A DNA stretch of 1,035 nt from Naegleria gruberi (lineage: Eukaryota), in assembly GCA_000004985.1 (NCBI GenBank), contig GG739603.1. One strand, written 5' to 3'. The notes beneath the pieces are model-generated. The model did not search any database. It had not been told where the DNA came from and worked only from the letters and a program-made list of their open reading frames with translations. Position numbers and translations under genes: made by a program. Positions 1-1,035 of this stretch are shown here, one piece after another. Each line of letters starts with the position of its first letter. The first letter of the stretch is position 1.

Positions 1-69
1 AAAATCAGAAAAATAAACTTCATCATTTTGAGAAACGAATATATTATTTACAGCTGATATTGTGCATTA
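1..69 (-). other. Out-of-frame (-1) continuation of the NHL gene. A third NHL blade start is readable across and beyond the annotated stop codon and runs off the 5' edge of the window (minus-strand 3' direction).
   Basis: In the -1 frame relative to the CDS, minus-strand codons from 66 down to 1 read C-T-I-S-A-V-N-N-I-F-V-S-Q-N-D-E-V-Y-F-S-D-F, with a stop at 67-69 just upstream in that frame. This aligns with the blade starts LSHPCGVFVSLTNEVYISDF and EGVFVAPNDEVYMADI of the in-frame repeats. The DNA at 1-24 (aaaatcagaaaaataaacttcat) matches 167-189 (aaaatcagaaatataaacttcat) at 22/23 positions. The spacing is 166 nt instead of the in-frame 168-nt period, and the segment between the conserved PAINAQ and N(D)EVY codons is 29 nt here versus 36 nt in the intact repeat. 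The CDS stop at 48-50 therefore sits inside repeat-homologous sequence. Confidence 0.5.
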
Positions 70-395
70 ATTGCAGGTCCACCATCTCCACTATATCCTT
101 TAACTCCAGTTCCCACAATTGTTACAATATTGCCATTTCTTAATATTTTTCTAATTCTATAATTTCCAAAATCAGAAATATAAACTTCATTAGTTAATGA
201 AACAAATACACCACATGGATGGCTCAATTGTGCGTTAATTGCAGGATCATCATCACCACTAAATCCTTCTTCTCCAGTTCCTGCGATGGTGACTATAGTT
301 CCATCTTTTAATATTTTTCTCACCCGATGATTTTGGATATCTGCCATATAAACTTCATCATTCGGAGCAACAAATACCCCCTCTGGAGAATATAA
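1..395 (-). repeat. Intragenic tandem repeat with a 168-nt unit (one NHL blade per unit). It has two complete units (about 228-395 and 60-227) plus a partial, frame-shifted third unit (1-59).
   Basis: Unit alignment, e.g. 64-191 vs 232-359, gives about 96/128 identical nt by hand count. Shared blocks include ttaattgcagg, ctccagttcc (10/10), tttaatatttttct and ataaacttcat. The conserved PAINAQ codons lie at 60-77 and 228-245, exactly 168 nt apart. Confidence 0.75.
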
Positions 396-506
396 CATTG
401 CTTCAGTGGCTAATTTTTTATTCATCATTTTAGCCTTTTTCTTTACTTTATTTTCATCATTTTCTGATGATGAAGAACCGGATGAAGAACAAAGGCTTCG
501 TTTCAT
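48..506 (-). CDS. NHL-repeat (six-bladed beta-propeller type) protein, 152 aa as annotated. It has an N-terminal Ser/Asp/Glu/Lys-rich low-complexity tract (aa 4-31) and then two NHL blades (aa ~38-93 and ~94-149). The stop is TAA at 48-50. The gene is probably part of a longer or disrupted multi-blade gene (see feature 1..69).
   Basis: ORF-track protein has two repeats of the NHL consensus: (P)xGVFV..N(D)EVY.aDxxNhRIRKI...G.IvTIaGTG..G.sGDggPAINAQ. Specifically VFVAPNDEVYMADIQNHRVRKILKDGTIVTIAGTGEEGFSGDDDPAINAQ and VFVSLTNEVYISDFGNYRIRKILRNGNIVTIVGTGVKGYSGDGGPAINAQ. ATG at 504-506 is the first ATG after an in-frame stop (minus-strand TGA at 531-533) and sits in an A-rich context (acaaaaaaaATGa). 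Codon usage is consistently AT3-biased over the whole ORF. No Shine-Dalgarno is present, and the long ORF-free flank argues for a eukaryote. Confidence 0.72.
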   Translation of the reverse strand: MKRSLCSSSGSSSSENDENKVKKKAKMMNKKLATEAMLYSPEGVFVAPNDEVYMADIQNHRVRKILKDGTIVTIAGTGEEGFSGDDDPAINAQLSHPCGVFVSLTNEVYISDFGNYRIRKILRNGNIVTIVGTGVKGYSGDGGPAINAQYQL

Positions 507-533
507 TTTTTTTGTAAAAAATCCAAAAGATCA

Positions 534-598
534 AATGAACTGTGGTGGAATGAACTGTAATTTATATTGCAACAAGCACCAGCTCCACTTCTCATTGG
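534..598 (-). promoter_or_regulatory. Putative core promoter of the NHL gene (minus-strand sense). It has a CCAAT box (plus 594-598 ATTGG; minus reads AACCAATGA), a TATA box (plus 560-566 atttata; minus TATAAAT), and a duplicated 10-mer AATGAACTGT at 534-543 and 549-558 (minus ACAGTTCATT, Inr-like) over the expected start site.
   Basis: On the minus strand 5'->3' the order is CCAAT, then 32 nt, then TATAAAT, then ACAGTTCATT-ccacc-ACAGTTCATT, then about 28 nt, then ATG(506). CCAAT-to-TATA and TATA-to-ATG (60 nt) spacings are typical of a compact Pol II promoter. No ATG lies between the predicted start (~536-541) and ATG 506. The minus-sense CCAAT flanks match RRCCAATSR. Confidence 0.3.
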
Positions 599-707
599 TT
601 TTTGCCATTTTGGCTTGAAAGAACATTGTTTGGTTTTTGGCTGGAATTACAACTTCTTCGTTTGAGAGGTTGGAATGTTGCACTGGTGTTAATTTATTTC
701 TGTTCTG

Positions 708-878
708 ATTGGTATTGGTACAAGTAAATATTGGTTGCTAATATTGCTGTTTCATTTCCATCATTATTCGTTGAATGTTAATTAATCATTGGCTAATAAG
801 GCCAATCATCATTAGGAAGAAGAACTTAGCAAGAGCTTTATTTGAGGAGTCTAGAAGAAAGTTTCTTTTATTATTGGT
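708..878. promoter_or_regulatory. Cluster of CCAAT-box motifs. On the plus strand ATTGGT occurs at 708-713, 714-719 (direct tandem), 730-735 and 873-878, and ATTGGC at 788-793, all reading as (A/G)CCAAT in the NHL gene orientation. There is also a forward GGCCAATCA at 801-809.
   Basis: Together with 594-598 this makes six ATTGG pentamers on one strand in about 300 bp of non-coding DNA. That exceeds the roughly one or fewer expected by chance for an AT-rich sequence. Several copies have full NF-Y-type flanks (AGCCAATGA, GGCCAATCA, TACCAATCA). Confidence 0.28.
778..809. promoter_or_regulatory. Composite palindromic element. TTAATTAA (778-785, a perfect 8-bp palindrome with a homeodomain-type TAATTA core) abuts the dyad atcATTGGC-taataag-GCCAATcat (785-809). 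The dyad has 9-bp arms with 1 mismatch and a 7-nt spacer, and contains two head-to-head consensus CCAAT boxes.
   Basis: The palindromes are read directly from the sequence. Each half-site independently satisfies RRCCAATSR on its own strand. Confidence 0.3.
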
Positions 879-931
879 GAAAACAGATTATCTTTTATCC
901 AGTTCAAATGTACCAAAACCTTATTATTTTC

Positions 932-1005
932 TATAAAACTGATATCAGGATTCTCACTCTTTTAAATTGTTATAAATATTTATTTCACGGATTGTTCACA
1001 CAATG
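932..1005 (+). promoter_or_regulatory. Possible divergent (plus-strand) promoter and gene start. TATAAAA is at 932-938 and TATAAATA at 971-978. An ATG at 1003-1005 sits in a strong Kozak context (acaATGg) and opens a reading frame (MVFQPFSNLEG...) that runs off the window.
   Basis: These are sequence motifs only. The downstream ORF is just 11 codons long inside the window, so coding status cannot be assessed. Confidence 0.15.
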
Positions 1006-1035
1006 GTATTTCAACCTTTTTCTAATTTGGAAGGT

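What the first reader, a model, noticed from the sequence alone, without database searches (positions are those of the whole stretch)
1..69. NHL propeller gene is frame-broken: the annotated stop lies inside a third blade that continues in the -1 frame
Directly after the conserved PAINAQ of blade 2 the ORF reads YQL-stop (TAA at 48-50). Shifting by one nucleotide gives SAVNNIFVSQNDEVYFSDF, a clean start of another NHL blade that continues beyond base 1. The DNA repeat spacing is 166 nt instead of 168 nt here, and the Q-to-N linker is 29 nt instead of 36 nt. Three readings are possible. It may be a sequencing or assembly indel. It may be a genuine recent pseudogenising or truncating mutation in a blade array. 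Least likely, it is a real short protein followed by a decaying repeat. A 152-aa, two-blade product cannot form a closed six-bladed NHL propeller alone, which favours a longer original gene. No slippery heptamer is present in the 48-66 overlap, so programmed -1 frameshifting is not supported.
Basis: seen in the sequence. Interest (0 to 1): 0.55.

Follow-up and report, generated by a model that had tools for sequence, protein, structure and literature searches.

The report
Truncated NHL gene at scaffold end
The frame break is really in the record, but it is one missing base about 50-60 nt from the end of a tiny 1,035-bp scaffold of the Naegleria gruberi Sanger draft genome, so it is most likely a draft-sequence error (or at most a trivial lesion) in an ordinary six-blade NHL propeller gene that runs off the scaffold.

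Summary
The minus-strand ORF 506..48 (152 aa) ends PAINAQ-YQL-TAA, and the -1 frame reads SAVNNIFVSQNDEVYFSDF to base 1. That tail matches a blade profile far better than chance: 69.9/76.0 bits repaired, against 48.5/51.8 raw and a maximum of 57.2/61.2 in 1000 shuffles.

Blade spacing is 168 then 167 nt, and the linker is 39 vs 38 nt, so exactly one base is missing, within window ~50-62.

The ORF is XP_002667939.1 (NAEGRDRAFT_55044) of Naegleria gruberi NEG-M. Its only contig is 1,035 bp, the same length as the window, so the window is the whole scaffold and cannot be extended.

I tested and rejected a GT-AG intron and a slippery -1 frameshift site. An intact member of the paralogous Naegleria subfamily (P0122, 335 aa, 98% identical to the N. 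gruberi paralogue P0003) has six blades, so the annotated 152-aa protein is a truncated model.

Most likely (~0.6) this is a base-call or assembly indel at a low-coverage scaffold end. A real recent 1-nt deletion (~0.3) cannot be excluded without reads. Ordinary, low interest.

The parts
48..506 (-). Annotated CDS, 152 aa: XP_002667939.1 / EFC35195.1 / NAEGRDRAFT_55044, 'predicted protein' of Naegleria gruberi
   Evidence: ORF list and translation. There is a 100% identical database protein whose only contig is 1,035 bp. Pfam TEN_NHL 6.8e-11 and NHL 1.5e-6, both above the curated cut-offs.
396..506 (-). N-terminal leader (aa 1-37), Ser- and Lys-rich, with no blade. A second possible start is at Met27/Met28 (window 428-423).
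   Evidence: Translation. Relatives start with only about 5-20 residues before the first blade. The start site was not tested.
228..395 (-). NHL sequence repeat 1 (aa 38-93, LYSPEGVFV...PAINAQ), 168 nt
   Evidence: Direct repeat D1/D2 at 168-nt spacing. Pfam NHL match at aa 38-64.
60..227 (-). NHL sequence repeat 2 (aa 94-149, LSHPCGVFV...PAINAQ), 168 nt
   Evidence: Window 59-219 is 74% identical to 227-387 at 168-nt spacing. TEN_NHL match at aa 81-133.
50..62 (-). Interval that must contain the missing base (the frame junction). The best repair is an extra T or C at 58/59, giving CAA-TTA/CTA-TCA = Q-L-S.
   Evidence: The repeat register changes from 168 to 167 nt between window 59 and 41. 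The repair must lie 5' of the TAA at 50..48. A scan of all 1-nt insertions and 2-nt deletions gives AQ-L-SAVNNIFV as best (69.9/76.0 bits), with other positions only 2-6 bits lower, so the exact site is not resolved. An intact paralogue aligns through this stretch with a net 1-nt deficit.
48..50 (-). Annotated TAA stop, created by the frame error; it falls across codons Val-Asn of the repaired blade 3
1..57 (-). Start of NHL repeat 3 in the -1 frame (SAVNNIFVSQNDEVYFSDF, 19 codons), cut off by the scaffold end
   Evidence: Translation. 83%/76% DNA identity to blades 2 and 1 over window 1-41. A profile gain of about 21-24 bits, about 15 sd above shuffles.
507..1035 (.). AT-rich upstream region with no convincing gene or RNA; presumed 5' intergenic/promoter DNA
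   Evidence: Only short ORFs of 70 aa or less, and no open frame of note running off the right end. Rfam gave a single sub-threshold hit (14.6 vs 117 bits), and that lay inside the CDS. GC 0.29-0.34.

Best explanation
The window is a complete, tiny (1,035-bp) unplaced scaffold of the Sanger draft genome of Naegleria gruberi NEG-M. It carries the 5' part of an ordinary NHL-repeat beta-propeller gene: a leader, two full 56-aa repeats, and the first 19 codons of a third.

The gene simply runs off the scaffold. About four more repeats (~650 nt) are expected beyond base 1. That figure is an inference from a six-blade member of the paralogous Naegleria subfamily.

The consensus lacks one base within window ~50-62. 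Most likely this is a base-calling or assembly indel in the low-coverage last ~60 nt of the scaffold. The error throws the reading frame onto a chance TAA at 50..48.

Because a stop was met 47 nt before the scaffold edge, the gene caller closed the model as a 'complete' 152-aa protein rather than flagging it 'partial'. The 152-aa two-blade protein is therefore an annotation artefact, and no recoding mechanism is involved.

Shown: the one-base deficit, the homology of the tail, the identity and size of the scaffold, and the six-blade architecture of an intact paralogue. Inferred: that the missing base is an error and not a mutation.
For: 1. Identity and context. There is a 100% match to XP_002667939.1 (N. 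gruberi), whose only contig is 1,035 bp, equal to the window length. GenBank protein accession numbers rise with scaffold size (EFC35195: 1,035 bp; EFC35268: 1,282 bp; EFC35853: 12,219 bp; EFC39022: 304,373 bp), which places this among the smallest scaffolds. NEG-M was sequenced by Sanger and is highly fragmented (PMC9928731 Table 1).
2. The lesion is exactly one base. Spacing is 168 then 167 nt and the linker 39 vs 38 nt, with a net 1-nt deficit against an intact paralogue.
3. Repair restores a canonical blade. A 1-nt insertion gives 69.9/76.0 bits, against 48.5/51.8 raw and 74.2/85.5 for the intact blade 1->2 unit cut at the same extent. The best repair recreates the family-conserved Leu after AINAQ.
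4. This is the only defect in 506 nt of otherwise clean ORF, and it sits in the last ~60 nt of the scaffold. Single-read, low-quality consensus is expected there; this is my own knowledge of Sanger assemblies, not tested.
5. The same assembly fragments this family elsewhere. P0010 is a 'partial' NHL protein on a 1,282-bp scaffold. The six-blade gene seen intact in L002/P0122 (335 aa) appears in N. gruberi only as two partial models, P0003 (258 aa) and P0121 (223 aa).
Against: No reads, quality values, transcripts or second assembly of this locus could be reached, so error and real mutation are not directly distinguished.

The repaired linker (L-S-A-V-N-N) lacks the Pro that is present in all 25 Naegleria-like blade units (L-x-x-P) and in blades 1 and 2 of this gene. 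The repaired unit also scores a little below the intact one. This could mean relaxed constraint in a real pseudogene, or equally a patch of several base-call errors.

Paralogue model P0003 lies on a 304-kb scaffold, where coverage should be good. It also ends prematurely (...RKVLKVE) where the intact gene continues, so real truncations or mis-modelled ends may occur in this family.
Confidence: 0.6

Rival explanations
1. A genuine, recent one-base deletion in the genome (or in one haplotype) truncated or pseudogenised one copy of a multi-copy NHL propeller family. The small scaffold could be a divergent or degenerate copy that failed to assemble with the rest.
For: The one-base deficit is in the record. 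The repaired blade 3 lacks the otherwise invariant linker Pro and scores slightly lower than an intact blade. Another N. gruberi paralogue model on a large scaffold also ends early. The family is multi-copy in N. gruberi, so loss of a copy would be tolerated.
Against: This is the only lesion in 506 nt. The 57 nt after it are still stop-free and strongly blade-like, about 15 sd above shuffles, so any mutation would have to be very recent. Its position in the last ~60 nt of a 1-kb Sanger scaffold is what an error predicts; a random real mutation would land there only about 12% of the time (60/506, my estimate).
Confidence: 0.3
2. A genuine short two-blade NHL protein that works as an oligomer (three copies closing a six-blade ring). 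It would be followed by a decaying remnant of a former third repeat.
For: Designed two-blade 'Pizza2' proteins are detectable homologues of the query (E 6.6e-7 to 3.4e-5). According to my own knowledge they trimerise into six-blade propellers, so the architecture is physically possible.
Against: The 'remnant' is not decayed. It is 83% identical in DNA to blade 2 and in perfect register apart from one base. The C-terminus YQL* is an out-of-frame reading of the conserved linker. No relative ends here. No other copy of the 152-aa protein exists in about 15 billion sequences; its cluster has 1 member on 1 contig.
Confidence: 0.04
3. A short spliceosomal intron spans the stop (the TAA lies within ctGTAAAT, a donor-like site), and splicing restores the frame.
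For: N. gruberi has introns (1.7 exons per gene; PMC8296547 Table 2). The stop sits in a GTAAAT. In relative L001, a 34-nt GTAAAG...ATAG segment would fuse two ORFs in frame.
Against: The 34-nt GTAAAT...GAAG segment does not restore the frame. Every GT...AG removal that does leave an open frame deletes conserved blade sequence and scores at most 35.7/45.2 bits. That is below even the uncorrected peptide (48.5/51.8) and far below the 1-nt repair (69.9/76.0). The putative intron is itself homologous coding sequence (21-22/34 identical to blades 1 and 2). The needed correction is +1 nt with no loss of residues. Mean N. gruberi intron length is 203 bp.
Confidence: 0.01
4. Programmed -1 ribosomal frameshifting joins blade 2 to blade 3.
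For: The downstream frame is -1 relative to the upstream frame, and the two frames overlap by ~18 nt.
Against: There is no X XXY YYZ slippery heptamer anywhere in the last ~100 nt of the gene. All relatives, including an intact Naegleria-type paralogue, are in frame at this point. Only 47 nt remain downstream, so a stimulatory structure cannot be assessed.
Confidence: 0.01

Closest known systems
NHL-repeat six-bladed beta-propeller family (Pfam PF01436 NHL / PF25021 TEN_NHL). The closest solved relatives by sequence are the teneurin-like proteins 9ifo/9pt5, SOQ1, NHLRC2, the PknD sensor domain 1rwi, and the designed Pizza proteins.
   Same: Pfam NHL and TEN_NHL matches are above the curated cut-offs. 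The 56-aa repeat carries the family motifs G-x-G-x-x-G-(F/Y)-x-G-D-G-G-P-A...A-x-L-x-x-P-x-G-V-x-V...Y-(I/V)-(A/S)-D...N-x-R-(I/V)-R-K. PDB sequence hits reach 2.4e-69.
   Different: Only two complete repeats plus 19 codons of a third are present, because the scaffold ends. The annotated product stops after repeat 2 owing to a one-base frame error.
Naegleria gruberi paralogue subfamily: XP_002671766.1 (P0003), XP_002668597.1 (P0121), the partial XP_002668012.1 (P0010), and the intact 335-aa version P0122 on ENA contig L002
   Same: A short leader followed directly by 55-56-aa NHL repeats. 55-59% amino-acid identity and 66-70% DNA identity running straight through the frame break. Similar AT-rich composition (0.32 vs 0.34 GC).
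   Different: P0122 is a single uninterrupted ORF with six repeats ending ...GYIGDVSF. The window gene has a longer Ser/Lys-rich leader, a 1-nt deficit, and no sequence after repeat 3's first strands.
Gene models truncated or mis-closed at contig ends of draft assemblies (a well-known annotation artefact)
   Same: The model lies at the very end of a ~1-kb scaffold. A single indel close to the edge creates a stop, and homologous coding sequence continues to the last base.
   Different: Here the artefact is hidden: the model is labelled complete, unlike P0010, which NCBI flags 'partial'. Whether the indel is an error or a real mutation was not testable.
Designed two-blade Pizza2 proteins (3ww7, 4zcn, 5chb), derived from the PknD NHL propeller
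   Same: A two-blade NHL-type polypeptide of similar repeat sequence. This shows a two-blade unit could in principle oligomerise into a closed ring (my own knowledge of Voet et al. 2014).
   Different: Those are engineered, perfectly symmetric, ~87-90 aa and end at a blade boundary. Here the C-terminus is an out-of-frame read of the next linker, and a third blade follows in another frame.

Membership tests
NHL repeat / TEN_NHL beta-propeller | Significant match to the Pfam NHL (PF01436) or TEN_NHL (PF25021) models above the gathering score | tested here: met
   152-aa ORF: TEN_NHL 42.2 bits (cut-off 27.1) and NHL 28.3 bits (cut-off 20). The frame-corrected 169 aa gives TEN_NHL 50.4 bits.
NHL repeat / TEN_NHL beta-propeller | About six tandem repeats in one chain, enough to close a six-bladed propeller | tested here: inconclusive
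   Only 2 full repeats plus the start of a third are in the window, and the scaffold ends at base 1. The intact paralogue P0122 has six R-(I/V)-R-K units in 335 aa.
NHL repeat / TEN_NHL beta-propeller | Beta-propeller fold (four-stranded blades) | not tested
   No structure prediction was run. There is sequence homology to solved propellers (teneurin-like 9ifo 2.4e-69, SOQ1, NHLRC2, PknD 1rwi, Pizza6).
Programmed -1 ribosomal frameshift site | Slippery heptamer X XXY YYZ in the zero frame within the frame overlap | tested here: not met
   A regex scan of the last 106 nt of the gene found none.
Programmed -1 ribosomal frameshift site | Downstream stimulatory hairpin or pseudoknot, and conservation of the shift in relatives | tested here: not met
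   All 120+ relatives inspected are in frame at this junction. A stimulatory structure cannot be assessed with only 47 nt remaining.
Spliceosomal (GT-AG) intron | A GT...AG segment whose removal restores the frame and keeps the protein homologous to its family | tested here: not met
   All frame-restoring GT...AG removals score at most 35.7/45.2 bits, against 69.9/76.0 for the 1-nt repair. The 34-nt GTAAAT...GAAG segment leaves a stop.
Processed or decaying pseudogene | Several disabling lesions and loss of family-conserved residues | tested here: inconclusive
   There is one lesion in 506 nt and the tail is still strongly blade-like. However, the invariant linker Pro is missing in repaired blade 3. 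The sequence is too short for a dN/dS test.
Draft-assembly artefact at a scaffold end | The lesion lies in low-coverage, low-quality consensus and is absent from independent reads | not testable with these tools
   The position 48-62 nt from the end of a 1,035-bp Sanger scaffold is shown.

The most novel reading that the evidence does not exclude
The stop is real and used. N. gruberi would then make a 152-aa, two-blade NHL protein that trimerises into a six-blade ring, a natural counterpart of the designed Pizza2 proteins caught just after truncation of a longer gene. This would be a snapshot of propeller evolution by fragment oligomerisation.
Probability: 0.03. Interest if true: 0.55.

Novelty: already known. 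Interest (0 to 1): 0.08.

Why it matters
It matters mainly for annotation hygiene. XP_002667939.1 / D2W6V7_NAEGR is propagated in NCBI, UniRef and EukProt as a complete 152-aa protein. It is almost certainly the mis-closed 5' fragment of a six-blade NHL propeller gene of roughly 370 aa (my estimate) and should be flagged partial or frameshifted.

It also shows that tandem NHL repeats, 74-83% identical at the DNA level, break up this Sanger assembly. If the deletion proved real, it would be a routine example of copy loss in a multi-copy family. Nothing here bears on recoding or on a new system.

Tried and rejected
- Extending the window: an exact-protein contig lookup for the 152-aa product and for the N. 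gruberi paralogues P0003 and P0010 found nothing on record. The database shows the only contig is 1,035 bp, so there is nothing to extend.
- Independent copies: an exact 41-mer scan of prokaryotic genomes found no hit, which also gave no sign of a prokaryotic source, for that one exact 41-mer. A junction pattern with a flexible gap found nothing in JGI metagenomes. No protein above 60% identity other than the record itself exists in the 5.8-billion-cluster database.
- Intron: I first thought by hand that the 34-nt GTAAAT...GAAG segment would restore the frame. The script showed it does not, and all frame-restoring GT-AG removals destroy the blade.
- Programmed frameshift: there is no slippery heptamer.
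- Two-base deletions as the repair score 4-10 bits lower than one-base insertions.
- Pinpointing the missing base: the profile prefers Leu at 58/59, but only by 2-6 bits, so the site is not resolved.
- RNA families: there was only a sub-threshold IS009 hit, 14.6 vs 117 bits.
- Literature: no paper links N. gruberi with NHL repeats.
- P0003's odd C-terminus (LKVE*) is not reproduced by a simple +1/+2 reading of the intact L002 DNA. It is left unexplained.

Full report
**What is in the window**

The 1,035-bp window is AT-rich (GC 0.32). It holds one convincing gene, on the minus strand from 506 to 48 (152 aa). The product has three parts:
- a 37-residue Ser/Lys-rich leader;
- two 56-residue repeats (window 395-228 and 227-60) with the pattern L-x-x-P-x-G-V-F-V...N-(D/E)-E-V-Y-(M/I)-(A/S)-D...R-(V/I)-R-K-I-L...G-x-I-V-T-I-(A/V)-G-T-G...G-(F/Y)-S-G-D...P-A-I-N-A-Q;
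- the tail Y-Q-L-stop.

Pfam places it in the NHL / teneurin-NHL propeller family, above the curated thresholds (TEN_NHL 42.2 bits, NHL 28.3 bits). The 529 nt upstream carry no credible ORF or RNA.

**Checking the observation**

The stop TAA is at 50..48, directly after PAINAQ-YQL. The frame offset by -1 reads ISAVNNIFVSQNDEVYFSDF with no stop to base 1. This is not chance, on two lines of evidence.

- At the DNA level, window 1-41 matches the equivalent parts of blade 2 (83%) and blade 1 (76%) without gaps.
- At the protein level, I cut 278 blade units out of 60 homologues (this protein excluded) and built a profile. I built a second profile from 25 units of the Naegleria-like subset. The results:

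| Blade unit starting at RKILRNG | General profile (bits) | Naegleria-like profile (bits) |
|---|---|---|
| As annotated (raw) | 48.5 | 51.8 |
| Tail joined in the -1 frame | 69.9 | 76.0 |
| Intact blade 1->2 unit, same extent | 74.2 | 85.5 |
| 1000 shuffles of the 59-nt tail, best of three registers: mean (sd) | 51.5 (1.2) | 54.2 (1.4) |
| 1000 shuffles: maximum | 57.2 | 61.2 |

The GAAGTTTAT landmarks are 168 and then 167 nt apart. The distance from the end of the Gln codon to that landmark is 39 and then 38 nt. The repeat finder independently shows the register changing from 168 to 167 between window 59 and 41. The lesion is therefore a net loss of exactly one base.

**Where the base is missing**

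The missing base must lie 5' of the TAA (50..48) and 3' of the stop in the -1 frame (the TAA inside GCAATTAATGC). Together with the repeat register, this gives roughly window 50-62.

I scored every single-base insertion and every two-base deletion in 39-72.
- One-base insertions score 4-10 bits better than two-base deletions.
- The best repair is an extra T or C at 58/59, turning CAA-TAT-CAG into CAA-(T/C)TA-TCA-G.. = Q-L-S.
- This restores the Leu that follows A-x-x-A-Q/K in nearly all Naegleria-like blade units and gives the same Q-L-S as the blade 1->2 linker.
- Other positions are only 2-6 bits worse, so the exact site is not resolved.

An intact paralogue aligns straight through the stop with a net one-base deficit in the window.

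**Where the sequence comes from**

A protein search returned an identical 152-aa entry, 'predicted protein [Naegleria gruberi]' (XP_002667939.1, EFC35195.1, NAEGRDRAFT_55044, UniRef D2W6V7). Its only contig is 1,035 bp long, the length of the window. The window is therefore a whole unplaced scaffold of a eukaryotic draft genome.

This has two consequences. The proposed leftward extension is impossible, and the frame break sits 48-62 nt from the physical end of the record.

GenBank protein accessions for this genome rise with scaffold size (1,035; 1,282; 12,219; 304,373 bp for EFC35195, 35268, 35853, 39022). This scaffold is therefore among the smallest in the assembly. Strain NEG-M was sequenced by Sanger: 40.9 Mb, N50 about 160 kb, and 1,977 'scaffolds' as tabulated in PMC9928731. 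GC is 33% and mean intron length 203 bp (PMC8296547).

**Rivals tested**

- *Intron.* The organism is a eukaryote and the stop lies in ctGTAAAT, so I enumerated every GT...AG segment whose removal leaves an open frame to base 1. All of them delete conserved blade sequence. They score at most 35.7/45.2 bits, below even the uncorrected peptide. The tempting 34-nt GTAAAT...GAAG segment does not restore the frame at all. The correction needed is plus one base with no residues lost, which no intron can provide.
- *Programmed -1 frameshifting.* There is no X XXY YYZ heptamer in the last ~100 nt, and every relative is in frame here.
- *A genuine short protein with a decaying remnant.* The 'remnant' is as well conserved as a live blade. 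The YQL* end is an out-of-frame read of the conserved linker. No relative ends there, and no second copy of the 152-aa protein exists in the database.

**What a complete gene looks like**

The N. gruberi paralogues are P0003 (258 aa, 304-kb scaffold), P0121 (223 aa, 12-kb scaffold) and P0010 (243 aa, 'partial', 1,282-bp scaffold). P0003 and P0121 are 98% and 97% identical to the two ends of P0122, a 335-aa protein on an ENA metagenome contig (L002).

P0122 is one uninterrupted ORF with a very short leader. It has six R-(I/V)-R-K repeat units and a ...GYIGDVSF end. By analogy, the window gene should continue for about four more repeats (~650 nt) beyond base 1; this is an inference.

The same comparison shows that this draft assembly repeatedly breaks NHL repeat genes into partial models.

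**Error or mutation?**

This cannot be settled with the tools available, because no reads, qualities, transcripts or second assembly of the locus were reachable.

I favour an error (~0.6) for these reasons:
- It is the only defect in 506 nt of clean ORF.
- It falls in the last ~60 nt of a ~1-kb Sanger scaffold. There the consensus usually rests on the poor end of one read; this is established practice, not tested here.
- The downstream 57 nt show no decay.
- Repeats 74-83% identical in DNA also invite small mis-joins.

A real, very recent deletion keeps ~0.3 for two reasons. The repaired linker (L-S-A-V-N-N) lacks the Pro that all 25 Naegleria-like units and blades 1-2 possess. And P0003, on a large scaffold, also ends early. 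Either way, the annotated 152-aa 'complete' protein is a truncated model.

**Comparison with what is known, and verdict**

The gene is an ordinary member of the NHL-repeat propeller family. Its closest solved relatives by sequence are teneurin-like proteins (9ifo/9pt5, 2.4e-69), SOQ1, NHLRC2, TRIM-NHL domains, the PknD sensor and the designed Pizza proteins.

Designed two-blade Pizza2 proteins, which are detectable homologues here, trimerise according to my own knowledge. The most novel reading not excluded is therefore a natural two-blade trimer, but I give it about 3%.

The feature is a mis-closed gene model at a scaffold end. This is already known in kind and of low interest (0.08). It is useful mainly as a correction to a database entry.

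Noticed in passing
L001:1387-3229 (ENA ERZ27315067, contig k141_1260589): In the closest non-Naegleria relative (P0039, 60% identical), a 371-aa protein-kinase ORF ends at a TAA inside AG|GTAAAG, 40 nt before the NHL ORF. Removing a 34-nt GTAAAG...ATAG segment fuses the two in frame into a 603-codon reading with one stop, presumably the terminal one (its position was not checked). This relative may therefore be a kinase-NHL fusion (PknD-like architecture) split by a prokaryotic gene caller. A frame-preserving GT-AG pair has about a 1-in-3 chance of occurring anyway.
   Followed up: partly
P0003 / P0121 / P0122; L002:69-1076: Two N. gruberi gene models are 98% and 97% identical to the N- and C-terminal parts of one intact six-blade 335-aa ORF (P0122). 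They are XP_002671766.1 (258 aa, 304-kb scaffold) and XP_002668597.1 (223 aa, 12-kb scaffold). P0003 ends ...RKVLKVE* exactly where the intact gene continues ...RKVQRNGIIK. A simple +1/+2 reading of the L002 DNA does not reproduce LKVE*, so the cause (mis-called intron, indel or contig gap) is unknown.
   Followed up: partly
L002 (ENA ERZ929261, run ERR1078381, project PRJEB11402): A 1,537-bp metagenome contig encodes a protein 97-98% identical to N. gruberi proteins, with GC 0.34. N. gruberi or a very close relative is therefore present in that public metagenome. No counterpart of the window gene (above 60% identity) was found in any collection.
   Followed up: no
window 396-506 (-), esp. 423-428: The annotated 37-aa leader (MKRSLCSSSGSSSSENDENKVKKKAKMMNKK...) is much longer than in relatives, which have about 5-20 residues before blade 1. 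Met27/Met28 would give a relative-like start (MMNKKLATEAMLYSPEG...). The true start codon is uncertain.
   Followed up: no
window 42-58 (-): The linker of the third repeat (S-A-V-N-N) is atypical beyond the frame error. The Pro and Gly conserved in L-x-x-P-x-G of blades 1-2 are both replaced; the Pro is present in all 25 related units. This 17-nt patch is also the least conserved DNA between the repeats. It could be a cluster of base-call errors or real divergence.
   Followed up: partly
query aa 7-125 vs PDB 9ifo_A / 9pt5_A residues 944-1062: The best solved-structure match by far is a ~2,140-2,240-aa 'teneurin-like protein' (E 2.4e-69, three stretches). This is much stronger than the match to animal teneurins (about 1e-10) or TRIM-NHL domains. 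The source organism of that entry was not looked up.
   Followed up: no
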